Source of the DNA: Escherichia phage JEP8
Direction: 5' to 3' (one strand)
DNA: 64,000 nt
Sequence record: MT764208.1
The notes below the pieces were generated by a model that saw only the letters and a program-made list of their open reading frames with translations, was not told the DNA's origin and searched no databases. Shown here piece by piece: positions 6,982 through 39,308 of this stretch (position 1 is the stretch's first letter; each line of letters opens with the position of its first letter). The position numbers and the translations under genes were made by a program.

Positions 6982-8451
6982 CTATTCCCCATTACCATTA
7001 TACTTTCTTTGCTTAGTTATCCACACTCTAACCATCTCTACTGATTCACCGTCAGACGGATCAAGAGTTTTTCCTTTTTTCTTCATGCGATACTTAAATC
7101 CGTTAAATCTTGCATTCTCTTGCTCGTTAAAGTCGAACATCTTTTTAAATGATTTTCTCCCTTTACGCTCACCACATTCTAGCGGAATCATTCGGTCTGT
7201 TATTACATTGGCATTAGGTAGAAACGTTTTTAGATAATCCACCAACGCCCAATCAGGAACATATAGATTAACATTCTCCTTGCTCTCGTTGTCTCTCAGG
7301 TTACAACGCAAACATAATTGAAATGCTGGTTCCAGATAATCAGACACATGACGCGCTTTCAAAAACTCGTTTGTCGGGAGATCACAACTATTAGCAAGAC
7401 CTTTTAAAATATCAATCTCCCATCGTTGAGGGTTAAAGCTGAACATCACAGCAACATTTTTATGATGAATGTAAGAGTTAAGACCATAAGATCCGTAAGG
7501 TATCCGCTCACCAATACCATTTGTGCACGCTTCACGGTCCCGATTCACGGTATAAATGAAGTCATCGCCACATTCATTTTTAACCATATCAACAAGACGT
7601 TCAAAGGTATTGTTTGTTTCTGACTGGTGACGCGACCAGCGTTCGGAGTCAGTCATAAGGATGATGTTAACTCTATCTGTATTTTTATACTCTTTGAAAT
7701 ATAGTCTGGATTCTAGCGCACTCGGAACAAAATCGCAATTTGCATAGTATCGTAGATACTTCCCACTATATGTATCAAAGAGATTTGCACATGCTATCGT
7801 AACCTTTTTAAAGTCTCCCCACGTACCGTGTTTGTTATCGTTCAAGAAAACAATTTTCGACCCATTCTTCCGGTGTCCTTCGTTATGTTTTACCATAACG
7901 TTGATTTTCTTCTCTAATAACGCCTCATAAAGCCCTCTAAGAGAAGAATCGATCATATCAGTACCATCCTTTGCACTTTCTATCTTTTCTTTGATAGCGG
8001 CCTTCTCAGAGTCTTTTAGAACTAAGTTCTGTAGGCATTCCGATTCGTCGGCGATTGGTTCGCAATGCTTCGTGATAAGTTCAAGATTAGACTTAAACGG
8101 ATACTCATTAAATTCAACCAGTTGAGGAACTTCATCAATGTAAAGAGCATATTCACCAAACATTTTTGAACGTTCCATATTAGATAACGCTGTATGTGTA
8201 ATGAATATCACATCAGCACCGTCTTTAACTGATTGCATTATCGACGCTTGCACTGTCTTAAGGCTTCTTAGTCTTGTGCTATCGATCAAGACAGCACGAC
8301 CGCCCATTCTTTTAAACTTATTGTAAGATTGTTCACTTAAAACACGAGATGGCGAAGCAATAACCGCTTTTTCTTTTGTCTCTAGGACGTGGGAAAGTAT
8401 AGCATCAGTTTTCCCCGCCGCTGGCAATGCGATTAATGTTTCAATCTTCAT
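6982..8451 (-). CDS. P-loop NTPase of unknown function (helicase-like N-terminal motifs)
   Basis: 489 aa; Walker A-like ALPAAGKT, then IASPSR, Walker B-like ALYIDEV. Occupies the position immediately upstream of gene 55; no alpha-glucosyltransferase-like gene present. Confidence 0.6.
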   Translation of the reverse strand: MKIETLIALPAAGKTDAILSHVLETKEKAVIASPSRVLSEQSYNKFKRMGGRAVLIDSTRLRSLKTVQASIMQSVKDGADVIFITHTALSNMERSKMFGEYALYIDEVPQLVEFNEYPFKSNLELITKHCEPIADESECLQNLVLKDSEKAAIKEKIESAKDGTDMIDSSLRGLYEALLEKKINVMVKHNEGHRKNGSKIVFLNDNKHGTWGDFKKVTIACANLFDTYSGKYLRYYANCDFVPSALESRLYFKEYKNTDRVNIILMTDSERWSRHQSETNNTFERLVDMVKNECGDDFIYTVNRDREACTNGIGERIPYGSYGLNSYIHHKNVAVMFSFNPQRWEIDILKGLANSCDLPTNEFLKARHVSDYLEPAFQLCLRCNLRDNESKENVNLYVPDWALVDYLKTFLPNANVITDRMIPLECGERKGRKSFKKMFDFNEQENARFNGFKYRMKKKGKTLDPSDGESVEMVRVWITKQRKYNGNGE

Positions 8452-8759: not shown

Positions 8760-8867
8760 TTACTTAATGATACTTACTTTACCAGATCCATGACAATGAG
8801 CGCAACACCCATCACCACGTAATCCTGTTCCGTTACAGTGTTTACACTTCTTCAACGGTAAAGTCAT
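8760..8867 (-). CDS. Mini-protein with two DnaJ-type CxxCxGxG zinc-finger repeats (35 aa)
   Basis: Below ORF-track cutoff. Translation MTLPLKKCKHCNGTGLRGDGCCAHCHGSGKVSIIK; repeats CKHCNGTG and CAHCHGSG. No clear SD. Confidence 0.35.
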   Translation of the reverse strand: MTLPLKKCKHCNGTGLRGDGCCAHCHGSGKVSIIK

Positions 8868-8907
8868 TATAGCAAATAAAGCAATAATGAACACCGAAAC
8901 TAAATTC

Positions 8908-9177
8908 TCAATAATCATAAATCGCCCTCAGTTCTTTATAGCCTCCAATGTGCTCGTTGTCAATGAATATCTGGGGGTATACAAACCGGAGGCTCTTTGA
9001 GTTCAGCCTCCCCGCCAGTTCTTCAATCATATCACGGTCGGGAATAATGTCAACCCCGACCTGCTTGAATACTGGTTTAAGTGTATACGGAATACCCAGA
9101 TCATCCAGTAGCTTCATTGCACTAATACAACCATAACAATGATAAGCCTCTTTAGGTATACCGTATATCTCGATCAT
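8908..9177 (-). CDS. nrdH: Glutaredoxin-like protein (NrdH-like)
   Basis: 89 aa; CxxC active site (CYGC) near N-terminus; located next to the nrdG/nrdD cluster. Confidence 0.7.
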   Translation of the reverse strand: MIEIYGIPKEAYHCYGCISAMKLLDDLGIPYTLKPVFKQVGVDIIPDRDMIEELAGRLNSKSLRFVYPQIFIDNEHIGGYKELRAIYDY

Positions 9178-9650
9178 TTCTCAGCCTTTAATCTTTCTAG
9201 TTCTTCTTCCAGTTCCTTGATCCGTTGGTCACGTTCAAAGTCACGCTGTAACTTAGTGGCGAATACTCGTTTAAACTGATTGTAATCATCGATTTTAAAC
9301 ACTTCTTCTTCGCCATAGCGACGCACAGAAACTTCGTAGTTATTGAAGAATTGTTGCATCATTGCTTCGGATGATAGTTCTGCTGATACTACTTTAAAAT
9401 ATTGATCTTCGGTAGGTGAAAACCAATTACAAGCATAAAGATAAACCTTTTCATTGTCTGGACACTGATAAGCCTTACCATCGATTTCAATCACAGAAAC
9501 ATATTCAGGTATACTGGATGAATCAATAGCTAAGACTTTAAACGCACGGTCCCCGATAAACTCGGAGATCACACGATTCGCATCACTGGTTGCAAATGCT
9601 TTACGCGCTTGTTCGTTTTTCCACTGATAGGTCATACCAACAACAAACAT
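9174..9650 (-). CDS. Paralogous family member A (GKTY/DGK/ERK-F-F module)
   Basis: 158 aa; GMTYQW, IEIDGKAY, EDQYFKVV; charged C-terminal tail (ELEEELERLKAEK). Confidence 0.55.
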   Translation of the reverse strand: MFVVGMTYQWKNEQARKAFATSDANRVISEFIGDRAFKVLAIDSSSIPEYVSVIEIDGKAYQCPDNEKVYLYACNWFSPTEDQYFKVVSAELSSEAMMQQFFNNYEVSVRRYGEEEVFKIDDYNQFKRVFATKLQRDFERDQRIKELEEELERLKAEK

Positions 9651-9651
9651 A

Positions 9652-10476
9652 TTACCAACCTCGCTCTTTACCGATCAAAAATTCAACTTCACGACGTTTA
9701 ATATCTTCTTGAAGGTCTTTAATCTTCTGGCGATCTTGCATGATTTCGTCCATCTTGTCAAGTGCTGTAATGAAATCATCGAAACGTTCAAAGGTTTTAC
9801 CTTCATTTGCTTCGCCAAATTTAACCATTGTCAGGCCGTAACGACTACTAAACAGACGTTTCAACTGTCCAACGATCTTAGAATCAGTAGTGACGACTTC
9901 CAATTCTTCTACTTCTTGAAAGAATTTTCTATCAGAATCAATAAACCAGCTAATTCCTTTATGGTCTTTATCTTCGGTTGCACTCATTAGAGTATGGTCT
10001 TTACCATCAATTTCAATTACATCAATTTGCCCACATGGACTAACCTTTTTAACAGTAAAAGGTCTATAATTTATTGCTCGTGCAATAACATAATTAAGGT
10101 TTGATACGTTTTCAGCATAATGGCAGAAGTCGGTCATAGCATTCGCATCTTTCCAAGTATAAGTTTTACCAACTTCCCATTTCTGGGGAACTTCTTCGAC
10201 TTCACGAAAGAATTTTCTATCGAATGGACTAAAGAAATATGTTGCAGTCCAAATGTCTTTTCCTGTAGCAGTTTTCGCCGTATGATAAACACCGTCTAGC
10301 TCTATTGCATCAATCCAACCGTTACCCTCGATCTCGATGATGGTAAATGGCTTGTCACCAATAGCTGCACTAATATCGCTGTTAAGTGGAGAAAGAACAC
10401 CTTCTCCGTTAGTAATAAACTCAGTTTTAGCGTTTTCGTCTTTCCAAGTGTAAGTTTTACCAATTTCCCATTTCAT
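9652..10476 (-). CDS. Paralogous family member B (two tandem modules)
   Basis: 274 aa; MKWEIGKTYTWKD...IELDGVYH...DRKFFREV then KWEVGKTYTWKD...IEIDGKDH...DRKFFQEV. Confidence 0.6.
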   Translation of the reverse strand: MKWEIGKTYTWKDENAKTEFITNGEGVLSPLNSDISAAIGDKPFTIIEIEGNGWIDAIELDGVYHTAKTATGKDIWTATYFFSPFDRKFFREVEEVPQKWEVGKTYTWKDANAMTDFCHYAENVSNLNYVIARAINYRPFTVKKVSPCGQIDVIEIDGKDHTLMSATEDKDHKGISWFIDSDRKFFQEVEELEVVTTDSKIVGQLKRLFSSRYGLTMVKFGEANEGKTFERFDDFITALDKMDEIMQDRQKIKDLQEDIKRREVEFLIGKERGW

Positions 10477-10488
10477 AATATATTCCCC

Positions 10489-10974
10489 TTAACCGATTTT
10501 ATCAAGTTCGTTTAATGCTTTCTCTGCTTCCTGTATAGCTTGCACTCTTTCCGGCATTTTGTCAAGAAAATCTTTCAACTCTTCAAAACTGGAGATATGA
10601 CGCAAGGCATTAGCACCGATAGCCGCATGTGATTTGCATTCAAAGCGGATTTTATAATTATCCATAGCCAATTTGAGAAGATCAATTAGATCATGTTCAT
10701 GACCAGGCAATAAAACTTCTTTGAAGCACGCTCGGTCGTCATCGGAAAACCATATATTATCACCAACATCGATAGAACTAATATAATCCCCTTCGTGATT
10801 ATAGATTGAACGTACATTACCCCAACGGTCTACCGTAGCGACAGTAAATGGTTTATCTAGATATGTAAACACACCATCAATATTAGGTTTTTGTTCGTAA
10901 CGCCAACAATCACGCAAAATACGCTTTTCGTCCTCACCAACCAACTTATATGTCTTCCCTTCTTCCCATTTCAT
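10489..10974 (-). CDS. Paralogous family member C
   Basis: Start moved to MKWEEGKTYKL (SD GAGAGATGA); DRACFKEV motif; coiled-coil tail. Confidence 0.6.
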   Translation of the reverse strand: MKWEEGKTYKLVGEDEKRILRDCWRYEQKPNIDGVFTYLDKPFTVATVDRWGNVRSIYNHEGDYISSIDVGDNIWFSDDDRACFKEVLLPGHEHDLIDLLKLAMDNYKIRFECKSHAAIGANALRHISSFEELKDFLDKMPERVQAIQEAEKALNELDKIG

Positions 10975-10978
10975 AATA

Positions 10979-11506
10979 TCATCTCTCATTTTTGATACGT
11001 GATTCTAATTGGATCATACGGTCGCGCGTTTGCTTATATTCGCGGATAGCACCGATTCGGCTAGGCATACCATCCAGTACGCTCTTAATACCTTCTAGGG
11101 TAGTGATTTTAGCAATGCTATTATGCAATCCTGTCTTATCGATCAACTGAATGTCGTAGGCTTCCATAAGCAGACCCAGACGTTCTAAAGTTAGGTCTTC
11201 TTCTTTTTCTTCCGATTCTGGAATCTTAGGTTCAATAGTAACTTCGGTAAAGAAACGACGCTCACCAGCCCAAAACCACACACCGGAACAGCCAATAGGG
11301 GATTCTTTTAACGTCATAGAGTCGAAATCACTACCAATAATAGTAATTTCTCTAACATCACCATCATCGTCAATGTCTTCTACCATAAACGGGCGACCAG
11401 CCAACAAGTCCACAATACATCTGTTAATAGACGACGAAAATTTAGTCAGTTCGGCTTTCGACGCTTCGCATTCAATCTTGTAAGTTTTACCAACTTCCCA
11501 TTCCAT
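10979..11506 (-). CDS. Paralogous family member D
   Basis: Start moved to MEWEVGKTYKI (SD GAGGTGA); ERRFFTEV motif; charged tail. Confidence 0.6.
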   Translation of the reverse strand: MEWEVGKTYKIECEASKAELTKFSSSINRCIVDLLAGRPFMVEDIDDDGDVREITIIGSDFDSMTLKESPIGCSGVWFWAGERRFFTEVTIEPKIPESEEKEEDLTLERLGLLMEAYDIQLIDKTGLHNSIAKITTLEGIKSVLDGMPSRIGAIREYKQTRDRMIQLESRIKNER

Positions 11507-11516
11507 AATAATCACC

Positions 11517-12020
11517 TCAAATAATTTTCACTGGAATACTATTAACAATCTTGTATTGTACTTGATTGTCAGACCCCCGCCACGGCTTCTTCGTTGGCAT
11601 ATCTTTAATATAACGCCCATCGATGAACATGTCAACTGATTCTACAATTTTTCTTTGCTCATCATTCAATTGGTCAAGGGTATAACCGGACCATAGCCAA
11701 ATATCTTTATTTGGCATCCATGATTTTACTTCATCGATGATCCGCTGTACACCCTTTAAATTGCGTTTATACAGTGGATCGCCACCTAAGAATGTTAGCC
11801 CCTGAATAAAATCAGGACTAAGCAGATCCAGAATCAATCCCATTGTATCATCGGTGAATGGTTCCCCGTTCTTAGGATTGAGTATACTGGAATTAAAACA
11901 ACCATCACATGCGTGTGAACATCCGGTAACGTAAAGGGAGACTCTCACTCCCTCACCGTTAACCATATCACAATCTTTAATATCGGCATAGCGTAGTTTG
12001 CCGTATGTATCAGAACTCAT
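11517..12020 (-). CDS. nrdG: Anaerobic ribonucleotide reductase activating protein (radical SAM)
   Basis: ORF track starts at TTG; ATG at 12018-12020. Radical-SAM cluster motif CSHACDGC (Cx3Cx2C); adjacent to nrdD. Confidence 0.85.
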   Translation of the reverse strand: MSSDTYGKLRYADIKDCDMVNGEGVRVSLYVTGCSHACDGCFNSSILNPKNGEPFTDDTMGLILDLLSPDFIQGLTFLGGDPLYKRNLKGVQRIIDEVKSWMPNKDIWLWSGYTLDQLNDEQRKIVESVDMFIDGRYIKDMPTKKPWRGSDNQVQYKIVNSIPVKII

Positions 12021-12162
12021 ATTCAATTACCCCGAACTCGTTTACAATCTGCGCTTTATAGTAACCACCGCGAGATGCCAATAGATAAGCTGGTCTTAGG
12101 TATTCGTATTCACGGATTTCTACTTGTGCGTTTTCAGTTTCCCAAATCAGTAAAGTCCACAT
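12010..12162 (-). CDS. Small hypothetical protein (50 aa) overlapping nrdG start
   Basis: Below ORF-track cutoff; ATG preceded by the cassette RBS GGAGAATCAAAT; translation MWTLLIWETENAQVEIREYEYL... Confidence 0.3.
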   Translation of the reverse strand: MWTLLIWETENAQVEIREYEYLRPAYLLASRGGYYKAQIVNEFGVIEYEF

Positions 12163-12204
12163 ATTTGATTCTCCTGTAAAGTTGTATCTCGTCTTGATGA
12201 ATAT

Positions 12205-12233
12205 AGTATAGGGGATCTCGCGATCCCCGTCAA
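12205..12233 (-). promoter_or_regulatory. PeSL-like early promoter
   Basis: Minus strand TTGACG ggggatcgcgagatcccc TATACT (hairpin spacer). Confidence 0.55.
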
Positions 12234-12237
12234 GAAT

Positions 12238-12765
12238 TTATTTTAAATTTTTTCGAATGTATTCAGACCATTCCTTCCCTGTCATTTCGGACCCGTTCTG
12301 GAAACTGAAATATTCATAAGGCATCGAGTCAAGATAAAACAGGATCATACATCGCGCCATATAATACCAATCACGATTAAAGTAAACTACGTTATCACCA
12401 GTGCCATCAACCCCTTTATCATAACCATCGCGGGTACGGGCTACCCATTGAATAGTATCAGTTTTCTCACGGATAGTAACAGGTTCCCAATATCCAGCAC
12501 ATCCAGCATGACCACACGAACAAGTAAGGAAGTATTGGCCTTTTGCTTTGTTGTCATCCCATTCACGATGGATTGGTTCGACCTCGTGAAACAGTACCAA
12601 ACAATCATGATTATGCAACACTGGCTTACCATCAATCAATGCATGGAATGTATACAAACGACCAGTAGACAAATAGCTATCCTCACGCTCAACCAGTTCA
12701 ATAGCAATCTTTTTAGCTCGTTCTTTGTGTCGTTGTGCTTTACGCTTACGGTTTAATGATTTCAT
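12238..12765 (-). CDS. Hypothetical protein
   Basis: Start moved to MKSLNRKRK (SD GAGGTGAAT); basic N-terminus, Cys/His-rich middle (CSCGHAGCAGYW). Confidence 0.5.
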   Translation of the reverse strand: MKSLNRKRKAQRHKERAKKIAIELVEREDSYLSTGRLYTFHALIDGKPVLHNHDCLVLFHEVEPIHREWDDNKAKGQYFLTCSCGHAGCAGYWEPVTIREKTDTIQWVARTRDGYDKGVDGTGDNVVYFNRDWYYMARCMILFYLDSMPYEYFSFQNGSEMTGKEWSEYIRKNLK

Positions 12766-12782
12766 ATTCACCTCACACATTA

Positions 12783-13325
12783 TCAAAGGTCGCGATATAG
12801 TACATTATGAAAATGAGAACTTGCATTACCAATATTGTAGATAATAAATTCTTCATCCGGCGCTTGCGCTACAAATTGAGTATGAGCAACCGCCACAACC
12901 TTAAAAATACGATCCGTGATCTTGTGTTTAATTTCTGCCCCTACTTCCATAGGAACATATTCATTTGTTTCTGTTTCAGTCGCAAAACAGCCATCTTCTT
13001 CATAAGCACGAACAAATCGGTCGCAATCAGTACGCTTAACAAATTCAAGAGTATATAATTCTCGTGAATTGTCGGTATAGACCAATACAGAATTATTATG
13101 ATAGCGAATCACATACAGGTTATTATCATCGTCAATTACGCAAAAGCTACGGATTCCTTCGCCTTGACTCCAGCAGATATTAACCACCGTTCCTCTAATA
13201 AAAAAACTTTCCTTTAAATTAAAACTAGTCAATGTGCTAGCGTGCATTTTAACAACAACACCATCGCCAATTTCCAGTTTACGAAGTTTAACTTCTTTGC
13301 TCAGTACACAAAACATCATCATCAT
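12783..13325 (-). CDS. Hypothetical protein
   Basis: 180 aa; SD GAGAGGA before ATG. Confidence 0.5.
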   Translation of the reverse strand: MMMMFCVLSKEVKLRKLEIGDGVVVKMHASTLTSFNLKESFFIRGTVVNICWSQGEGIRSFCVIDDDNNLYVIRYHNNSVLVYTDNSRELYTLEFVKRTDCDRFVRAYEEDGCFATETETNEYVPMEVGAEIKHKITDRIFKVVAVAHTQFVAQAPDEEFIIYNIGNASSHFHNVLYRDL

Positions 13326-13354
13326 GTTGTCCTCTCGTTGTTTTCGATGTGAGC

Positions 13355-13382
13355 ATTATACATTAGCTAATCAAGTTGTCAA
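13355..13382 (-). promoter_or_regulatory. Early promoter (TTGACA-16-TATAAT) with conserved leader
   Basis: Minus strand TTGACA acttgattagctaatg TATAAT, then leader CACATCGAAAACAACGAGAGGA. Confidence 0.5.
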
Positions 13383-13392
13383 CACCCCAAAA

Positions 13393-13420
13393 CGAAAAAG
13401 CCGACCCTTTCGGATCGGCT
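13393..13420 (-). terminator. Rho-independent terminator downstream of nrdD
   Basis: Hairpin agccgatccgaaagggtcggct followed by TTTTTCGTTTT on the minus strand. Confidence 0.6.
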
Positions 13421-13425
13421 GAAAA

Positions 13426-15288
13426 TTACATGTGCTTAACGCGGTTTACCATCTCGGAGTGTTTCCCGTGGTTAAATGGACGCAGATCAACAGATCCAAG
13501 ATATCCACTAACGCGACGGATAACATTCATCTTTTCCAGATTGTCATTGCCGCAATCAGGGCAAACAAAACCAGACTCGGTCGCTCTCATTTCCTTATTA
13601 GATCCACATACATGACATACATCAGAAGGAGTATTAACACCGAAGTAGTGCAATTTATCCATTGCATAGTCTACTACAGTTTCAAGACCTTTCAGGTTGT
13701 TTTTCATGTCTGGGAACTCAACATAAGAGATCATGCCACCGGACGCCAGCCAGTGATAATCTTTCTCAAAGTCGATTTTCTCAAATGGTGTGACTTTCCG
13801 GTCTACGTCAAGGTGGAATGAGTTGGTGTACCAGTCTTTATCGGTAGCACCCTTAACAATACCAAATTGCTCTCTGTCCAGTCGATTAAATCGATAGCAA
13901 AGGCTCTCGGCTGGCGTACCGTAAAGACTAAACCCAAGTCCGGTTTCATCCTTCCATTTTTCAGTATAATGACGCAAGATCTTAAGAATATGTTTACCGT
14001 ATCGCTGCGCATCTTCCGAATCAAACGGATGAACACCAAACAGGACGCTCAATACCTCATGTAAACCAATATATCCAAGAGAGATACTAGCGCGACCATC
14101 TTTCAACACTTCCAAAATTTCATCGTTTTGATGAATACGGAAAAATGCACCTTCTGTATACAGCACCGGAGCAACATTGGCTTTAGCGCCTTTTAAAGCG
14201 TCTACGCGACTCATGAGCGCATCAAAGCAAATAGGCATACGATTGGCTAGCTCTTGTTCGAATAGCTCAATTCTGCGCATTACAGACGCTTTACCAGCAC
14301 GACGCGCGGCAATAAGGGCAATACGCGGAAGATTCAGAGTCACAACACCTAAGTTATTACGTCCGTCTAATACTTCTTCTCCTTTCTCATTATGCCACAC
14401 ACCCAGGAAGCTACGACAACCCATCGGGCTAACCGGAACACTAGATCCGGTGATACTACGGTTATTCTTCGCAGAGATATAATCAGGGTAAAGACGCTTA
14501 CTAGAACATTCCAATGCAAGTTGCTTAATGTCGTAGTTCGGATCTTCCGGTTTAAGGTTTAATCCTTCTTCTAAGAACATCACCAGCTTAGGAAACACCG
14601 GAGTGATACCATCTTTACCTAAACCTTTAGTTCGAACGTTCAGGATCGCTTTCTGAATCAGTTTTTCTTCCCAGCTAGTACCCATACCAAAGGTTAAAGT
14701 CACAAAAGGCGTTTGACCGTTGGTGGAGAACAAAGTGTTGATTTCATATTCCAACGCTTGATACCCGTCTAAAGTTTCTTTTTCTGTCTTCTCTTGTGCA
14801 TAGAGAGTATCAGCTTTGATTCCGTAGGTTTCGGCATCAGCAAGGTGTTTATGATATGTTTTCTCAACATACGGTGCTAACACCTGATCGATGTTTGCGA
14901 TTGTGGTCCCTCCATATTGATGACTTGCCACCTGTGCGATAATTTGAGCGGTCACAGCACATGCAACACCGATCGATTTAGGACTTTCGATTTGTGCGCT
15001 ACCCAATTTAAAACCATTCTCTAACATGTCTTTGAGATTAACAAGACAGCAGTTAGTAAACGGCATAGCGGGTGCATAATCCATATCATGATAATGAATA
15101 TCACCGTCTACATGCGCTTTATAGATGTGCTCAGGTAACACGGTTTTAGCAATCTGTTTAGACACAGCACCAGCAATCAGATCTCGACGTGTCGGGAATG
15201 TTCGCGCGTCTTTGTTCGCGTTCTCTTTACTTACTTCGTTTTCTTTACCCGTTGCGATCTCTGTAATGTCTTTGATTAGTTTTTCCAT
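13426..15288 (-). CDS. nrdD: Anaerobic ribonucleoside-triphosphate reductase
   Basis: 620 aa; C-terminal glycyl-radical motif RVSGYLG and Zn-ribbon cysteines (CHVCGS...CPDCG); uninterrupted ORF. Confidence 0.92.
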   Translation of the reverse strand: MEKLIKDITEIATGKENEVSKENANKDARTFPTRRDLIAGAVSKQIAKTVLPEHIYKAHVDGDIHYHDMDYAPAMPFTNCCLVNLKDMLENGFKLGSAQIESPKSIGVACAVTAQIIAQVASHQYGGTTIANIDQVLAPYVEKTYHKHLADAETYGIKADTLYAQEKTEKETLDGYQALEYEINTLFSTNGQTPFVTLTFGMGTSWEEKLIQKAILNVRTKGLGKDGITPVFPKLVMFLEEGLNLKPEDPNYDIKQLALECSSKRLYPDYISAKNNRSITGSSVPVSPMGCRSFLGVWHNEKGEEVLDGRNNLGVVTLNLPRIALIAARRAGKASVMRRIELFEQELANRMPICFDALMSRVDALKGAKANVAPVLYTEGAFFRIHQNDEILEVLKDGRASISLGYIGLHEVLSVLFGVHPFDSEDAQRYGKHILKILRHYTEKWKDETGLGFSLYGTPAESLCYRFNRLDREQFGIVKGATDKDWYTNSFHLDVDRKVTPFEKIDFEKDYHWLASGGMISYVEFPDMKNNLKGLETVVDYAMDKLHYFGVNTPSDVCHVCGSNKEMRATESGFVCPDCGNDNLEKMNVIRRVSGYLGSVDLRPFNHGKHSEMVNRVKHM

Positions 15289-15334
15289 TGTATCACCTAT
15301 GAAAAAGCGGGATTTTCTCCCGCTCGTTGATAGT

Positions 15335-15829
15335 TTATTTTACCAGTTCTGCTAATTCTTTTTCTTTAGCTTCCAGTTCAGCTTTAAGCTGTTTAATCTC
15401 TTGTCGCTTCTTATTAGCGGCTTCCTGCTTACTATTGCGGATAATCTGATCTAGATACAACTCCCAATCCTGAATATTTTTGATAATATAACCGTCAACA
15501 TTAATTGGTCGGATATTTAGTACAGCTTCCAGTTTAGTCGCAAAAACTTTAATTGCTGGTGTGAAGTATTCATATTCGTTATCTTCAAACCAATAACCTA
15601 GACTTGCATTCTCAATACGAAGACGAAGTTCAAGATCAAGGTCTTTATCTTCGGTGTAAAGATCTTGCACATGCCCCATCGAACTAACAACAACTTTAAA
15701 ACGAATTTTATCAACACCACCAAACACATCAGTAAGGATACCAGCAATTGAGCTATTAGCGCAAGATTGGTCGCTGAATGCGTCAAGGTTTTCTTTAGTT
15801 ACAGTATACCAAACATCTTGTACCCACAT
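15335..15829 (-). CDS. Paralogous family member E (divergent)
   Basis: 164 aa; NEYEYFTPAI motif and coiled-coil tail (KQLKAELEAKEKELAELVK); SD GAGAGGA. Confidence 0.5.
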   Translation of the reverse strand: MWVQDVWYTVTKENLDAFSDQSCANSSIAGILTDVFGGVDKIRFKVVVSSMGHVQDLYTEDKDLDLELRLRIENASLGYWFEDNEYEYFTPAIKVFATKLEAVLNIRPINVDGYIIKNIQDWELYLDQIIRNSKQEAANKKRQEIKQLKAELEAKEKELAELVK

Positions 15830-15859
15830 AATATAATCCTCTCGTTGTTAAGTGGGAGT

Positions 15860-15887
15860 ATTATAGCATACTCCCTTCGCATGTCAA
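15860..15887 (-). promoter_or_regulatory. PeSL-like early promoter
   Basis: Minus strand TTGACA ...gggagtatgc TATAAT actccc; hairpin spans the -10. Confidence 0.5.
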
Positions 15888-17062
15888 GCACTAACTTTTT
15901 TCTTTACTGCTTTCACCTTCTGGCGAATTGCTCGAATCTCTTCGATCTCTTTTTCAGTCTCTTTAACAATTTCTTTGCGATTCTGAATATCTGTATCGAG
16001 ATTATCATCAAGTTTAGGCAGCATGTCAATCAAGAACTTTTTAAAGTCTTTCAGGTTTCGGATAACAGCACCTTCACCCATTACCGCCACCCCTACACCA
16101 TCCGGCAGATCACCAAACAGCTTAACCAGTTCAGACAGATGATCATGATCTTCTAGTGCTTCTTCCGGTTCAGATGGCAGTTCAACAAAGTTATAACGTT
16201 CATCATTGCTGATCAAGTGATACCAGCAAAGCCCAAAAGATTTAGGAGTATATTCTACACCATCAACTTCAACCGCGTCAACACTTCCGAAAGAATCTAC
16301 TTTAGTTGCCTTAAATCCGTGTTCCAGCTTTTGAACAATTTCAATAACATGACTGGATACGGTTTCCGTATTAAACCAATGAGGCAAATTATGTGGATTT
16401 GGCTTGTAGCGTTCGCCTACTTTAAATCTCTGACCACGCTCTTGCATACGGACATATTCAACTCGCGTGATTTCCGCGAAGTATTCAAATTCGCCACCGT
16501 CAAACACACAAGCCCATTGATCACAAAAACGATCTGCCTTAACAGTTTCACCTTTCGCGGTGATCATGGTAGCTGATCCGTGCAATTCTTCTTCAACTAA
16601 AAAGCCATATTCGACAAAATCAACAAGTTTCATAGCTTCTTTGTGATCTGGATCATGCTCTCCCCAGAATCGCTTAAATTCTTGCAAACCTTCTGGGGTA
16701 AACGAATAACATTTACCTTTTTCAAAGTAAGTCGGCATTGCATCCTCTTTCTTGTTCATCGCTTCGTATGCCTCTTTTGAGATGCGTTTAAAGTATTTAC
16801 GCTCATTGTGCATAATCATAGTAGCCCAATAATCAACAATATCATTAGCGGAATAAACTACATCTCCAGCTTCAATAGTAATAACATGACCGTGGTCATC
16901 TTTTTCTAATACTTTAAAGCCCTTTTCTACGATTTCAGCAACCCGAATATGACCACGGCGCGAAGCATCGGTCAGAATAATTGAATAGCGAGAAAAGTCT
17001 AGAAACTCATCTTTACCACCTTCACGGAATGCATAGTAATGACCTTCAAAGAATTTAGCCAT
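15884..17062 (-). CDS. Paralogous family member F (multi-module, 392 aa)
   Basis: ERKYFKRI and ERYNFVEL motifs, VDAVEVDGVEY; C-terminal coiled-coil. Confidence 0.6.
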   Translation of the reverse strand: MAKFFEGHYYAFREGGKDEFLDFSRYSIILTDASRRGHIRVAEIVEKGFKVLEKDDHGHVITIEAGDVVYSANDIVDYWATMIMHNERKYFKRISKEAYEAMNKKEDAMPTYFEKGKCYSFTPEGLQEFKRFWGEHDPDHKEAMKLVDFVEYGFLVEEELHGSATMITAKGETVKADRFCDQWACVFDGGEFEYFAEITRVEYVRMQERGQRFKVGERYKPNPHNLPHWFNTETVSSHVIEIVQKLEHGFKATKVDSFGSVDAVEVDGVEYTPKSFGLCWYHLISNDERYNFVELPSEPEEALEDHDHLSELVKLFGDLPDGVGVAVMGEGAVIRNLKDFKKFLIDMLPKLDDNLDTDIQNRKEIVKETEKEIEEIRAIRQKVKAVKKKVSA

Positions 17063-17093
17063 AATATAATCCTCTCGTTGTTTAGATGTGAGT

Positions 17094-17122
17094 ATCTTAC
17101 TACTCCCGTTTCATCATGTCAA
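17094..17122 (-). promoter_or_regulatory. PeSL-like early promoter
   Basis: Minus strand TTGACA tgatgaaacgggagtag TAAGAT actccc. Confidence 0.55.
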
Positions 17123-17685
17123 GCGTTAAATGACTTTTGGATCTCTTTCAGTTCAGCTACTTTATCGGCGCTGAATTTAGCGTAGGTATCATGTCGAATA
17201 ATTTCACTTTCAAGAAAGGTTTCCAGCCGAGATCTATTTTCAATAAGGAACTCTTTCAGGTCTTCCGCGTTCTTGATAAAGATTTTATTGTCAGTAATGT
17301 CATCTTCAATCGCAAAGGAGATAGAGCGAACTTTACCAAACAAGTTAATCAGATCTTCCAGAGATTCTTCTTTCTTAACTGGTTTCATTTCTTCAAACTG
17401 CTTTTTAGTGATGCGTTTAAAGTATTTGCGCTCGCTTGCATCAATCATGATTGACGCACCCTCATAATCATGAGTTTCTACCAAATACACTTTACCCATA
17501 ACATTAACCGTAAGAACTTTAAAGCCCCTGTGAAGCACACCATACAGGAACTTGTTATGTTGTGGATAGCGTTTAACAAATTCCTCTGCGGACTCAGCAT
17601 TACGGAAAGTGTAATAACGACCTCGTTCAAAAACAGCATCATTTGAAGACTTAGCTGGATACAATTTATACGTTTTCTGTACCAT
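17119..17685 (-). CDS. Paralogous family member G
   Basis: Start moved to MVQKTYKLY (SD GAGGA); ERKYFKRI motif; coiled-coil tail. Confidence 0.6.
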   Translation of the reverse strand: MVQKTYKLYPAKSSNDAVFERGRYYTFRNAESAEEFVKRYPQHNKFLYGVLHRGFKVLTVNVMGKVYLVETHDYEGASIMIDASERKYFKRITKKQFEEMKPVKKEESLEDLINLFGKVRSISFAIEDDITDNKIFIKNAEDLKEFLIENRSRLETFLESEIIRHDTYAKFSADKVAELKEIQKSFNA

Positions 17686-17699
17686 AATATAATCCTCTA

Positions 17700-17972
17700 T
17701 CATTTCACTAATTGAACAGCACGGAACAGAATGCGCTCACACGGAAGCAGCATAAATTCCCAACGCGGATCAAAGTCTTTAGCGGTGTATGTTTTCCCAT
17801 CAACCGAGATTTCACTTACATAACCAACAGGTGACACTTTAAGAACAGTAAATCCATTCTTGATGACTTCGTAGGTATCTTTCACTCCTTCGTATTCATC
17901 ATCTAAGAAGTCTTTACGTGCTTGCTCAGATTTAAAAACATAGGCAACACCGGATTTAAACATCTTACGCAT
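17700..17972 (-). CDS. Paralogous family member H (single module, 90 aa)
   Basis: Start moved to MRKMFKSGVAYVFK after RBS GGAGAATCAAC; ISVDGKTYTAKDF motif. Confidence 0.5.
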   Translation of the reverse strand: MRKMFKSGVAYVFKSEQARKDFLDDEYEGVKDTYEVIKNGFTVLKVSPVGYVSEISVDGKTYTAKDFDPRWEFMLLPCERILFRAVQLVK

Positions 17973-18003
17973 TGTTGATTCTCCTTCTTGATTAGATGGG
18001 AGC

Positions 18004-18032
18004 ATTTTACTACTCCCATTTCTTATTGTCAA
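18004..18032 (-). promoter_or_regulatory. PeSL-like early promoter
   Basis: Minus strand TTGACA ataagaaatgggagtag TAAAAT; lies inside the TTG-extended ORF-track ORF, supporting the shorter CDS. Confidence 0.55.
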
Positions 18033-18035
18033 CTA

Positions 18036-18509
18036 CTATCTTAAACTTTTTATGAATTGTTTCTTATACTTCTTCGTGATCTCTTCTCTTGTATCAGCGT
18101 CGCAGTAATCGAAACCTTCTGCGTCCATAATAGCAACCATCTCCGCGCGGGTCAAGCGTGAAAATAGTTTTACTTTATCAACGGCATATTGAGGATGTAA
18201 ATGATTGTTGGTGTAGTCTCCTTTGATGTAATTAACATAGTTTGTAGCCCAAACAACGAAATCAGCACCTAAAGCACCAACACCAAACCGCTTAAAGTCT
18301 CCGGTCAACGATCCTTCTAGGCGGTTGCAACACGAATGAAGCAATCCCCTTACGCGGCCTTGCCCTTTCCCATCTAGATCATGATCATGGTCAAGATGGT
18401 TTTTGCTCATATCCTCAAAAAGTGGCAATTGACAAAGGGGGCAAATGCCCCCCTGTTTTTCGAATAGTTCTTGTTTGTACTCTTTAGCACTCTTAGCAGT
18501 CAGTAACAT
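18036..18509 (-). CDS. 49: Endonuclease VII (Holliday junction resolvase) gp49
   Basis: 157 aa from ATG (MLLTAKSAKEY) after SD GGAGGGTGA; Zn-binding CPLC...HLDHDHDLDG...GLLHSCCN resembles T4 endo VII. Confidence 0.85.
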   Translation of the reverse strand: MLLTAKSAKEYKQELFEKQGGICPLCQLPLFEDMSKNHLDHDHDLDGKGQGRVRGLLHSCCNRLEGSLTGDFKRFGVGALGADFVVWATNYVNYIKGDYTNNHLHPQYAVDKVKLFSRLTRAEMVAIMDAEGFDYCDADTREEITKKYKKQFIKSLR

Positions 18510-18823: not shown

Positions 18824-19636
18824 TCAATCTACGTTAGTTACATAAACTTCTTGCGTATCAGAAGACTTACCACCTGAACGATCTAGGCAATAGGTCTTAT
18901 TCAACAGGACGCAGTTTAAATCATTCCGCTTGATAAAGTCAAGGAGATGATCATTTACCTTTCCCTTATGATGTGTGACATTACTGATACCAAACTGAAA
19001 ACCACGCGCCATAATAGATTCTACCCACTGATAGAATTTAATCTCTTCCTCGTTACTCCAGAACTTATTGTATTCCGCAGAAGTGATAAGGTACGGCGGG
19101 TCCAAATAAACGAAATCACCTGGCAAGATCTCGATCTCGTCATAGCGACCAGACGTAAAACTGATTCGACCGTCTTTGTTTTCTTCCTTAAAATTCAGGA
19201 CACGCTCTACCGCGTTTTCGTTAAAAGTCCGGCGACCAAAATTAGCATTAAATTCTCCCTTTCGGTTATGGCGGTTAATGTTGCTAAAACTGTGCTGAAT
19301 CAACACAAACAGAGATAGCGGATCTGGATTCTCGTTATACTTCTTACGGAATATCATGTAAGCGTCTTTATCATCACGAGACAAATCATTTTCGGCAATA
19401 ATACGCTTGATCGTAGAAACCGGATCAGGACACTCGTCAATCGCTTTGTACGCGTCAATTAAGCGGTGATCATAGTCATTAGCCAGCACATCACCTTCGA
19501 CGTACAGAGACACGCTCAAGCCGCCACAGAAGGCATCAACAAAGCGGTTATAGCGCTTAGGGAAATACTTACTAACACCGGGCAATAGCTTTTCCTTATT
19601 GCCAGTATAGGGAATTAAACCTAATGCTTTCTTCAT
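18824..19636 (-). CDS. dam: DNA N6-adenine methyltransferase Dam
   Basis: 270 aa; PYTGNKEKLLP...FVDAFCGGLSVS...DFVYLDPPYLIT...YNKFW match T4 Dam as recalled; DPPY catalytic motif. Confidence 0.88.
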   Translation of the reverse strand: MKKALGLIPYTGNKEKLLPGVSKYFPKRYNRFVDAFCGGLSVSLYVEGDVLANDYDHRLIDAYKAIDECPDPVSTIKRIIAENDLSRDDKDAYMIFRKKYNENPDPLSLFVLIQHSFSNINRHNRKGEFNANFGRRTFNENAVERVLNFKEENKDGRISFTSGRYDEIEILPGDFVYLDPPYLITSAEYNKFWSNEEEIKFYQWVESIMARGFQFGISNVTHHKGKVNDHLLDFIKRNDLNCVLLNKTYCLDRSGGKSSDTQEVYVTNVD

Positions 19637-26390: not shown

Positions 26391-26419
26391 ATTATGCTAT
26401 ACCCTATTCCGGTTGTCAA
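26391..26419 (-). promoter_or_regulatory. Early promoter (TTGACA-17-CATAAT)
   Basis: Minus strand TTGACA accggaatagggtatag CATAAT. Confidence 0.5.
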
Positions 26420-31031: not shown

Positions 31032-31060
31032 ATATTACTACCCCCGATCATGTGTGTCAA
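31032..31060 (-). promoter_or_regulatory. PeSL-like early promoter
   Basis: Minus strand TTGACA cacatgatcgggggtag TAATAT; gggggta..taccccc hairpin. Confidence 0.5.
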
Positions 31061-34819: not shown

Positions 34820-35152
34820 TCACACCTTTAAAGTCATAGACGCATAAACATTAATGCCAGGCCAGTTAGGATCGCAATTATACTCAACATCCCACAAATA
34901 AAGCGGTTTAGATGTATCAGCCAAGTTTTTAAAATCTTCTACCCACATTTCAAGGCTATATGATGGATAAACTAGGCTATCATATCCGCCGTAACGTTGG
35001 CCTACTGGTCGGTCAGTAAAAACTACCTCAAGATCCGGTAATTCTTTTTCAAGGATAACCGCCAGCGCATAAATCAGACGGTCTTCCTTGTTACGCTGCC
35101 GAAGGACCGTTGTCAGTTGGTTTTTCTGGTTCACTAGCAAGCACCTCCACAT
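34820..35152 (-). CDS. Hypothetical protein (start uncertain)
   Basis: ORF track 34820-35158 begins with GTG; overlaps the upstream ORF. Confidence 0.35.
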   Translation of the reverse strand: MWRCLLVNQKNQLTTVLRQRNKEDRLIYALAVILEKELPDLEVVFTDRPVGQRYGGYDSLVYPSYSLEMWVEDFKNLADTSKPLYLWDVEYNCDPNWPGINVYASMTLKV

Positions 35153-35411
35153 TTTCACAGAATGAAATTTTCACAGACACAATTTTACCATAAGTGAAGA
35201 ATGAATATACATTATCGATATATTCAACGTCACCTACAATCACATCAAACTGCGGATCAGCAACCGCCGCAACATATTCTACCAGTTCATCAAGAGAATG
35301 CAACTTAATTTCATCAATTCGGCTGTATTTGGTTGCATCTTTGATTTTAAAACCACGTTCTTTCAGCTTATCAATTAGAATTTCACGCGGAGTTTCAAAC
35401 AGTTTGCTCAT
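35091..35411 (-). CDS. Hypothetical protein
   Basis: 106 aa; SD GAGGA. Confidence 0.45.
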   Translation of the reverse strand: MSKLFETPREILIDKLKERGFKIKDATKYSRIDEIKLHSLDELVEYVAAVADPQFDVIVGDVEYIDNVYSFFTYGKIVSVKISFCENVEVLASEPEKPTDNGPSAA

Positions 35412-38898: not shown

Positions 38899-38927
38899 AT
38901 CTTACTACCCCCGTTTCATGTTGTCAA
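38899..38927 (-). promoter_or_regulatory. PeSL-like early promoter
   Basis: Minus strand TTGACA acatgaaacgggggtag TAAGAT then conserved CGAAACGAAACGAAAGGAG leader. Confidence 0.5.
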
Positions 38928-38933
38928 CTATTT

Positions 38934-39308
38934 TTAAGAATATTTTACTTCGTCTACAATGTCTTTCATGACATTGATTTCCATTCCGGTCAGAACACGT
39001 TGGAACATGTGCTGCACATACGCTTTCAGATATTCATTTGATGGCTTGCTATCGAAAGTCTTTTTAGTGTAGTAGTCATCACCGAAAGCTACTGTAATTA
39101 CATTTTCGTCGTCGTTCCAAGCGATATAAGCAAATTTGCCGTTATCCCAGAAGCGAGCACTAATTGCTACTTTTGTTGAATCGAATCCTACTTCGCTGTG
39201 AGATTCAAGAACTACTTGCGTGCCAGTTTCTTTATGAATGTAGTAGCGGGATACTAAGTCAAAGTTACGGGTGTAGTGACATTCGAATTTATCTTTAAAC
39301 ATCATCAT
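38934..39308 (-). CDS. Hypothetical protein
   Basis: 124 aa; cassette RBS GGAGAATCAAAAA. Confidence 0.5.
   Translation of the reverse strand: MMMFKDKFECHYTRNFDLVSRYYIHKETGTQVVLESHSEVGFDSTKVAISARFWDNGKFAYIAWNDDENVITVAFGDDYYTKKTFDSKPSNEYLKAYVQHMFQRVLTGMEINVMKDIVDEVKYS

What the first reader, a model, noticed from the sequence alone, without database searches (positions are those of the whole stretch)
9174..17972. Eight-gene expansion of an unrecognised paralogous module bracketing nrdG-nrdD
Genes at 9174-9650, 9652-10476, 10489-10974, 10979-11506, 15335-15829, 15884-17062, 17119-17685 and 17700-17972 share a ~90-aa module: an N-terminal W-x-x-GKTY-x-[WKL] motif, a central [IV]-[ED]-[IV]-DGK motif and a C-terminal [DE]-R-[KRA]-[YFC]-F-[KRTQ]-[ER]-[VI] motif, usually followed by a charged coiled-coil tail. 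Two genes carry the module in tandem (at least ten copies overall). Several have their own promoter cassette. I do not recognise it as a named domain. Tandem amplification next to the anaerobic RNR genes suggests diversifying selection, for example host takeover, anti-defence or exclusion.
Basis: seen in the sequence. Interest (0 to 1): 0.78.

Follow-up and report, generated by a model that had tools for sequence, protein, structure and literature searches.

The report
Expanded GoF/Frd.2 early-protein family
Eight early genes beside the anaerobic ribonucleotide reductase genes of this RB49-like coliphage are an expansion of the T4 GoF/Frd.2/MotB.1 family, which is published but of unknown function, and closely related phages swap its N-terminal barrel domain while its C-terminal tail stays almost unchanged.

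Summary
All eight genes (minus strand) share a module of about 90 aa, 11 copies in all: g2 has two and g6 has three. Leave-one-gene-out HMMs recover every gene.

The module is not unrecognised. It is the N-terminal SH3/LSm-like beta-barrel of T4 GoF (ComC-alpha), Frd.2 and MotB.1, described as a phage family in 2025 (PMC12152347). PHROGs and RefSeq already name two of the eight genes "goF mRNA metabolism modulator". The "promoter cassettes" are the known PeSL elements of RB49-type phages.

I found no earlier description of the following:
- RB49 carries 9 family genes with 12 modules. T4 has 3 genes with 3 modules.
- Seven of the eight window genes share a C-terminal unit with a long helix that was not detected in T4 GoF, Frd.2 or MotB.1.
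- Among near-identical Krischviruses the barrel is mosaic (down to 41% aa identity, synonymous divergence saturated). The tail (84-100%) and the flanking nrd genes (97-100%) are conserved.
- Module number changes by recombination between short direct repeats.
- A family member lies directly downstream of nrdG in three other genera.

Function is still inferred: early, non-enzymatic binders acting on mRNA fate or on host proteins. Anti-defence is untested.

The parts
9174..9650 (-). g1 (158 aa): one N-terminal barrel module (9375-9650) plus the C-terminal unit with a coiled-coil helix
9652..10476 (-). g2 (274 aa): two tandem modules, g2a (10189-10476) and g2b (9895-10185), 49% identical, plus the C-terminal unit (9652-9894)
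   Evidence: phage AV108 has a single-module version
10489..10974 (-). g3 (161 aa): module plus C-terminal unit. Its barrel is the most variable among Krischviruses; residues 98-161 are invariant except at position 97 in seven allele clusters
10979..11506 (-). g4 (175 aa): module plus C-terminal unit. AF2 model m04c63cff335b has pLDDT of about 90 over residues 1-93
15335..15829 (-). g5 (164 aa): divergent module plus C-terminal unit with a 45-residue helix. AF2 model mcd186b10e658
15884..17062 (-). g6 (392 aa; 'frd.2'/'goF' in RB49 annotation): three tandem modules (16775-17062, 16445-16744, 16163-16438) plus the C-terminal unit (15884-16162)
17119..17685 (-). g7 (188 aa; annotated goF): one basic module (pI 9.4) plus the C-terminal unit
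17700..17972 (-). g8 (90 aa): a module alone, with no C-terminal unit
15830..15900 (-). PeSL cassette upstream of g5: TTGACA, 16 nt, TG-TATAAT (12/12), with the stem GGGAGTA/TACTCCC overlapping the -10 box, then the Shine-Dalgarno sequence GAGAGGA
   Evidence: PMC2839356
17063..17135 (-). PeSL cassette upstream of g6 (TTGACA, 17 nt, TAAGAT, same stem and Shine-Dalgarno block)
17973..18045 (-). PeSL cassette upstream of g8 (TTGACA, 17 nt, TAAAAT, same stem; Shine-Dalgarno sequence GAAGGAG)
10477..10505 (-). Weaker sigma-70-like match upstream of g2 (TTGATA, 17 nt, TATATT). It does not align with the PeSL cassette
10127..10474 (.). 57-nt direct repeats (10127-10183 and 10418-10474; 82% identical, 291 nt apart) encoding the KWE.GKTYTWKD starts of g2b and g2a. 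They are the likely substrate for module loss or gain. A related 32-nt repeat also lies at the starts of g3 and g4
11517..12020 (-). nrdG, a conserved anchor gene. A family member lies immediately downstream of nrdG in three other genera
13426..15288 (-). nrdD, a conserved anchor gene (100% aa identity across the sampled Krischviruses)

Best explanation
SHOWN. The eight genes are a Krischvirus-specific expansion of the T4 GoF (ComC-alpha)/Frd.2/MotB.1 family. Each protein has one to three N-terminal SH3/LSm-like beta-barrels carrying a two-helix insert. A low-confidence acidic linker follows. In seven of the eight genes this leads to a C-terminal helix, beta-hairpin, helix unit that ends in a long helix. 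Three of the genes (g5, g6, g8) sit directly behind sigma-70-type PeSL promoter cassettes. The two clusters occupy the nrdH|nrdG and nrdD|gene 49 junctions, which are uninterrupted in T4. Between otherwise near-identical phages the barrel is replaced by old, divergent alleles, while the C-terminal unit and neighbouring genes are conserved. Module number changes by recombination between short direct repeats.

INFERRED. These are abundant, non-enzymatic immediate-early binding proteins. The variable barrel, and especially its helical insert, is the target-recognition surface. The constant tail probably oligomerises the protein through a coiled coil. My preferred mechanism is that they alter mRNA fate early in infection. 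They would protect or redirect transcripts against host nucleases or Rho, by binding either RNA or RNA-metabolism proteins. Different paralogues and alleles would be tuned to different targets or host strains.
Confidence: 0.4

Rival explanations
1. They are protein-binding inhibitors or decoys. Each SH3-like barrel binds a host protein, such as a defence-system component, nuclease, protease or transcription factor. The array would be an anti-defence or host-takeover arsenal whose alleles track variation among host strains.
For: The barrel-only allelic mosaicism on a conserved backbone resembles arms-race loci. The modules are mostly acidic. The closest solved fold is FeoA, and other SH3/Tudor-type hits are protein-interaction domains. 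The genes are early and, in T4, dispensable in laboratory strains. Wild-type GoF lacks RNA activity.
Against: No partner is known. The GoF pull-down recovered mainly GoF itself. There was no significant PADLOC hit (one match at E 0.007). dN/dS never exceeds 1. The only experimental phenotype in the family concerns RNA.
Confidence: 0.33
2. They are accessory or scaffold factors for nucleotide metabolism, for example for the anaerobic reductase NrdD/NrdG or the dNTP-synthesising complex.
For: A family member sits directly downstream of nrdG in Krischvirus, Pseudotevenvirus, a Klebsiella straboviridae phage and Gelderlandvirus. T4 frd.2 lies beside frd/td/nrdA.
Against: T4 has none at the nrd locus. 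T4 goF and motB.1, and RB49 dc2, lie next to unrelated genes. These junctions are known hyperplastic insertion sites rich in PeSLs. Extreme barrel variability contrasts with NrdD/NrdG that are 98-100% conserved.
Confidence: 0.08
3. They are functionally neutral ORFan cargo spread and duplicated by PeSL-mediated recombination.
For: They lie in PeSL-rich plastic regions where shuffling is documented. T4 relatives are dispensable.
Against: All eight ORFs are intact, in the same order, in each of the five Krischvirus loci retrieved, and 55 of 58 records match at least 80% of the region. dN/dS is below 1 and the tails are near-invariant. The family is conserved across Straboviridae genera.
Confidence: 0.05

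Closest known systems
T4 GoF (ComC-alpha), Frd.2 and MotB.1: the phage 'LSm-like fold' family (Kim et al. 2025, PMC12152347)
   Same: The N-terminal barrel of about 90 aa is homologous. The barrel, linker, C-terminal domain layout is the same. The genes are early, and the family was found only in phage or phage-sized metagenomic contigs.
   Different: T4 has 3 dispersed single-module genes. RB49 has 9 genes with 12 modules, 8 of them in two tandem clusters at the nrd locus. g2 and g6 carry two and three modules. The C-terminal unit with its long helix is not detected in the T4 proteins. The goF and frd.2 slots of T4 are empty in RB49.
FeoA-type SH3-like domains (CATH 2.30.30.90)
   Different: There is no sequence match (Pfam) and no feoB context. 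The phage barrel carries a two-helix insert between strands 1 and 2.
Hfq / Sm-LSm RNA chaperones
   Same: A small bent five-stranded antiparallel sheet. A GoF mutant stabilises an mRNA.
PeSL promoter/stem-loop cassettes of RB49 and phi1 (Arbiol et al. 2010, PMC2839356)
   Same: The cassettes upstream of g5, g6, g8 and orf180 have a consensus -35/-10, a stem-loop overlapping the -10 box, and a Shine-Dalgarno sequence.
   Different: None; these are ordinary PeSLs. The barrel allele exchanges seen here have one breakpoint inside the gene, at the barrel/tail boundary, and not only at PeSLs.

Membership tests
GoF/Frd.2/MotB.1 phage LSm-like-fold family | [quoted passage not shown] | tested here: met
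   Window-only HMM: GoF 5e-10 and Frd.2 1e-4, full module length. Family HMM: GoF 6e-18, Frd.2 7e-11, MotB.1 3e-6. PHROGs goF families hit g1, g2, g6, g7 and g8.
GoF/Frd.2/MotB.1 phage LSm-like-fold family | Predicted bent antiparallel beta-sheet barrel (SH3/LSm-like) forming the first half of the protein | tested here: met
GoF/Frd.2/MotB.1 phage LSm-like-fold family | Flexible linker to a C-terminal domain whose structure varies between members | tested here: met
   pLDDT is below 50 at residues 94-100 of g4. The C-terminal unit is specific to the Krischvirus subgroup.
GoF/Frd.2/MotB.1 phage LSm-like-fold family | Early-gene expression | tested here: inconclusive
   Consensus sigma-70 PeSL promoters lie upstream of g5, g6 and g8. 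No transcript data are available here.
GoF/Frd.2/MotB.1 phage LSm-like-fold family | Post-transcriptional effect on mRNA stability (shown only for GoF D25Y) | not testable with these tools
   Needs reporter or half-life assays. Sequence hint only: Y/F at the D25 column in 4 modules and K/R at the G84 column in 5.
Hfq / Sm-LSm | Sm1/Sm2 sequence motifs detectable by family profiles | tested here: not met
   No LSM or Hfq Pfam hit at E <= 1 and no NCBIfam hit.
Hfq / Sm-LSm | Ring-shaped homo-oligomer (hexamer or heptamer) | not testable with these tools
   No multimer prediction is available here. The 2025 paper reports no confident AF3 dimers or hexamers for GoF or MotB.1.
FeoA (PF04023) | Sequence membership and feoB genomic context | tested here: not met
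   No Pfam hit. Neighbours are nrdH, nrdG, nrdD and gene 49. The resemblance is in fold only.
PeSL cassette | AT-rich leader, sigma-70 -35/-10, stem-loop, Shine-Dalgarno sequence and start codon in an intergenic gap | tested here: met
   (7 matches against 1.2 expected for TTGACA-N9-GGGAGTA with up to 2 mismatches).
Diversity-generating retroelement target protein (considered because one domain is hypervariable) | Variation by adenine-directed mutagenesis from a nearby template repeat, leaving synonymous background low | tested here: not met
   Synonymous divergence in variant barrels is saturated (dS 1.07-1.9) where the tail has dS of 0.1-0.5. No long template-like repeat was found in the 9.1-11.6 kb cluster scanned. 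I did not scan the window for a reverse transcriptase.

The most novel reading that the evidence does not exclude
The array is a combinatorial recognition battery. A near-invariant coiled-coil scaffold displays interchangeable SH3/LSm-like barrels. Their alleles are kept as an old polymorphism and exchanged by intragenic recombination, because each barrel neutralises or evades a different strain-specific host factor, such as a defence system or an RNA-decay component. That would make the GoF family a previously unrecognised class of phage counter-defence or host-range determinants and would finally give wild-type GoF and Frd.2 a function.
Probability: 0.25. Interest if true: 0.75.

Novelty: new variant of a known kind. 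Interest (0 to 1): 0.5.

Why it matters
GoF has lacked a wild-type function since the rho(nusD) suppressor genetics reviewed in PMC12152347 and PMC2988021. Frd.2 is the only T4 gene of unknown function scored as fitness-relevant by CRISPRi-ART (PMC11879866). Krischviruses offer a natural experiment. Nine paralogues and many barrel alleles sit on an otherwise isogenic backbone, so allele swaps and cluster deletions could link individual barrels to targets or host strains. The pattern of a variable barrel on a constant tail also predicts which surface, the helical insert carrying the D25 position, does the recognising.

Tried and rejected
- Pfam, NCBIfam and PADLOC gave no meaningful hits. A profile search of PDB sequences found nothing.
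- The profile search with the search for homologous proteins reached only Krischvirus proteins, because of its word prefilter. tblastn with g2 behaved the same way.
I therefore sampled other genera through nrdG.
- Marginal HMM hits at 35091-35411 and 38934-39308 are partial and not significant (E >= 0.007), so I rejected them as members.
- orf182 and orf180, between nrdG and nrdD, are not family members.
- Targeted hypermutation (a DGR) was rejected because synonymous divergence is saturated in the variant barrels.
- Gene conversion from another paralogue was rejected for g3. Its variant alleles keep g3-specific barrel residues.
- The C-terminal-unit HMM does not detect T4 GoF, Frd.2, MotB.1 or Dc2. 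I therefore do not claim homology of the tails across genera.
- One literature search on 'goF' was swamped by 'gain of function' papers.
- No paper found describes this paralogous expansion in RB49.
Full report
**Where the window comes from**

The 9.1-kb region is 95-98% identical to about 55 complete genomes of the genus Krischvirus, including RB49, phi1, JSE, GEC-3S and ECD7. They correspond to RB49p048-051 and RB49p057-060.

The gene order is nrdH, g1, g2, g3, g4, nrdG, three unrelated small ORFs, nrdD, g5, g6, g7, g8, gene 49. In T4 the equivalent stretch, nrdH-55.8-nrdG-mobC-nrdD-49, contains no such genes.

**Checking the observation**

All-against-all BLASTP links the eight proteins. 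A MAFFT alignment of the extracted modules is positionally conserved, with Y9, F40 and F86 invariant and G6 and G49 nearly so.

An HMM of the modules finds 11 copies: one each in g1, g3, g4, g5, g7 and g8, two in g2 and three in g6. It finds nothing else in the window at E < 0.03. Leave-one-gene-out HMMs recover every gene over the full module length, with E from 5e-16 to 2.6e-4 among 608 ORFs. The best unrelated ORF scores E >= 0.007.

The weakest member is g5. Its AlphaFold2 model (pLDDT 82) has the same order of secondary-structure elements as g4. Foldseek matches it to orthologues of g1, g2, g4 and g7, to Dc2, and to a protein named GoF.

Seven of the eight proteins (all but g8) also share a defined C-terminal unit: helix, beta-hairpin, helix, then a long helix.

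**What the module is**

Pfam and NCBIfam have no model for it. PHROGs connects all eight genes through overlapping families, several labelled 'goF mRNA metabolism modulator'. RefSeq names g6 and g7 goF, and the original RB49 annotation called g6 frd.2.

| HMM | T4 GoF | T4 Frd.2 | T4 MotB.1 |
|---|---|---|---|
| Window modules only | 5e-10 | 1e-4 | not scored |
| Family (window modules plus database representatives) | 6e-18 | 7e-11 | 3e-6 |

Every one of these hits spans the whole module.

Kim et al. [quoted passage not shown] FeoA-type SH3 domains were their closest solved structures.

An exhaustive profile search of 1.84 billion representative proteins finds only 66 hits at E <= 1e-3. Most are 130-190 aa. 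About ten have two modules and two have three. The members I could trace come from phage genomes or from metagenomic contigs of up to about 178 kb.

**The promoter cassettes**

Upstream of g5, g6 and g8 lie homologous cassettes. Each has TTGACA, a stem GGGAGTA/TACTCCC overlapping the -10 box, and a shared Shine-Dalgarno block. The same cassette precedes the unrelated orf180.

These are the PeSL elements of RB49 and phi1, shown by Arbiol et al. 2010 to act as strong early promoters and terminators and to mediate gene shuffling (PMC2839356). They imply immediate-early expression.

**Copy number and location**

Scanning the whole RB49 genome with the family HMM gives the eight nrd-locus genes plus Dc2. 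Dc2 (RB49p021) lies directly upstream of gene 41, outside this window. The total is nine genes and 12 modules.

T4 has three genes, according to the paper. My scan covered only T4 positions 1-50 kb and 140-148 kb, and found exactly those three. The T4 goF and frd.2 slots hold no family member in RB49.

A family member lies immediately downstream of nrdG in three other phages:
- UPEC03 (Pseudotevenvirus), two modules
- Klebsiella phage CP-p-KP-21068, two modules
- STML-198 (Gelderlandvirus), one module

So the nrdG slot looks ancestral and was expanded in Krischvirus.

Other T4-like phages also appear to carry several members. This rests on runs of consecutive UniProt accessions, which is an inference. 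If correct, multi-copy status is not unique to this genus.

**Evolutionary pattern**

I found no earlier description of what follows.

All eight genes are present, in the same order, in RB49, GEC-3S, FL04, JK32 and AV108. The flanking NrdH, NrdG, NrdD, gp49 and NrdC proteins are 97-100% identical to the window's. Yet individual family genes drop to 63-77% identity, and the divergence is confined to the barrel:

| Gene | Compared phage | Barrel aa identity | Tail aa identity |
|---|---|---|---|
| g3 | RB49, JK32, AV108 | 41-42% | 96-97% |
| g4 | FL04 | 47% | 88% |
| g5 | JK32 | 49% | 84% |
| g1 | FL04 | 66% | 92% |
| g2 | FL04, JK32 | 68-69% | 95-96% |
| g7 | GEC-3S | 82% | 99% |

In seven g3 allele clusters from public data, residues 98-161 are invariant, while overall identity to the window protein falls in steps from 94% to 65%. 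Barrel identity reaches 41-42% in the RB49-type allele. The steepest fall is in the two-helix insert between strands 1 and 2, from 82% to 14%.

Synonymous divergence is saturated in most variant barrels (dS 1.07-1.9; 0.45-0.57 for g2). The adjoining tails of g1-g4 have dS of 0.1-0.35, and the g5 tail in JK32 has 0.50. These are therefore old alleles moved by recombination, with a breakpoint at the barrel/tail boundary. They are not the product of recent hypermutation.

dN/dS is 0.24-0.55 in variant barrels, against about 0.02 for nrdD. That points to weaker constraint or mixed selection, but never to dN/dS above 1.

Module number is also polymorphic. AV108 has a single-module g2 whose sequence is the first residues of g2a fused to g2b. 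That is the product expected from recombination between the 57-nt direct repeats that begin the two modules.

**Mechanism**

What is established for the family comes from the literature:
- GoF is an abundant early protein, and it is dispensable in the laboratory.
- The D25Y and G84R mutants let T4 grow on rho(nusD) hosts.
- GoF(D25Y), but not wild-type GoF or MotB.1, stabilises an mRNA carrying the gene 41 leader, independently of Hfq.
- frd.2 scored as fitness-relevant in a CRISPRi-ART screen, although an frd.2 amber mutant plates normally.

From the window I add three observations:
- The variable barrel on a constant tail indicates a division into recognition domain and scaffold.
- At the aligned D25 column, four modules natively carry Y or F, and at the G84 column five carry K or R. 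The alignment near D25 is uncertain.
- Nine of the 11 modules are acidic, with pI 4.3-5.7 in eight of them; g7 is basic at pI 9.4.

I favour early, non-enzymatic binders that alter mRNA fate, at a confidence of about 0.4. Protein-binding inhibitors or decoys, including anti-defence factors, are a close rival at about 0.33. The rival's support is the acidity, the FeoA/SH3 resemblance and the arms-race-like allele pattern. An nrd-accessory role (0.08) and neutral PeSL cargo (0.05) are less likely.

**Verdict**

The module already has a name and a 2025 paper, and the promoter cassettes are known.

Still of interest are the size and architecture of the Krischvirus expansion, its distinctive tail, and the domain-level allelic mosaicism. 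Together these make the genus a good system for finding out what the GoF family does.

Noticed in passing
outside the window: RB49 NC_005066 11993-12628 (L005): Dc2 (211 aa), directly upstream of helicase gene 41, is a ninth family member (family HMM E 8e-8; Foldseek hit). GoF(D25Y) in T4 acts on the gene 41 leader mRNA, so the position is intriguing.
   Followed up: partly
window 12783-13325 (-): orf180 (phrog_14838, unknown function), between nrdG and nrdD, is preceded by the same PeSL cassette. It is replaced by a 59%-identical allele in phage JK32 (dS 1.4) while its neighbours stay 96-100% identical.
   Followed up: partly
window 8760-8918 (-): A 52-aa ORF has an N-terminal hydrophobic segment and two CxxCxGxG motifs (CKHCNGTG, CAHCHGSG) of the DnaJ zinc-finger type. 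It is conserved at 96-100% among Krischviruses.
   Followed up: no
window 6982-8451 (-): A 489-aa protein with a weak DEAD/DEAH-box helicase (P-loop) match (Pfam E 3e-6; phrog_2467, unknown function). It is about 100% identical across the sampled Krischviruses.
   Followed up: no
window 18824-19636 (-) versus GEC-3S (L002 10823-11106): The window and RB49 carry dam next to nrdC. GEC-3S instead has a putative HNH homing endonuclease at that position, and tblastn found no dam match in the retrieved GEC-3S locus.
   Followed up: no
L013 9670-10665; L014 9562-10521; L015 9552-9950: A GoF-family protein lies immediately downstream of nrdG in Pseudotevenvirus UPEC03 (2 modules), Klebsiella phage CP-p-KP-21068 (2 modules) and Gelderlandvirus STML-198 (1 module). 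T4 lacks one there.
   Followed up: partly
window 13399-13420 (-): A strong terminator-like hairpin (9 bp, 6 GC, followed by a T-run) lies just after nrdD and immediately upstream of the orf180 PeSL promoter (13355-13382).
   Followed up: no
window ~44000: GC skew changes sign from negative to positive near 44 kb. In RB49 the switch from minus-strand early genes to plus-strand virion genes maps there.
   Followed up: no
window 26398-26419, 31039-31060, 38906-38927 (-): Further near-matches to the PeSL core TTGACA-N9-GGGAGTA occur elsewhere in the window (7 matches against 1.2 expected).
   Followed up: no
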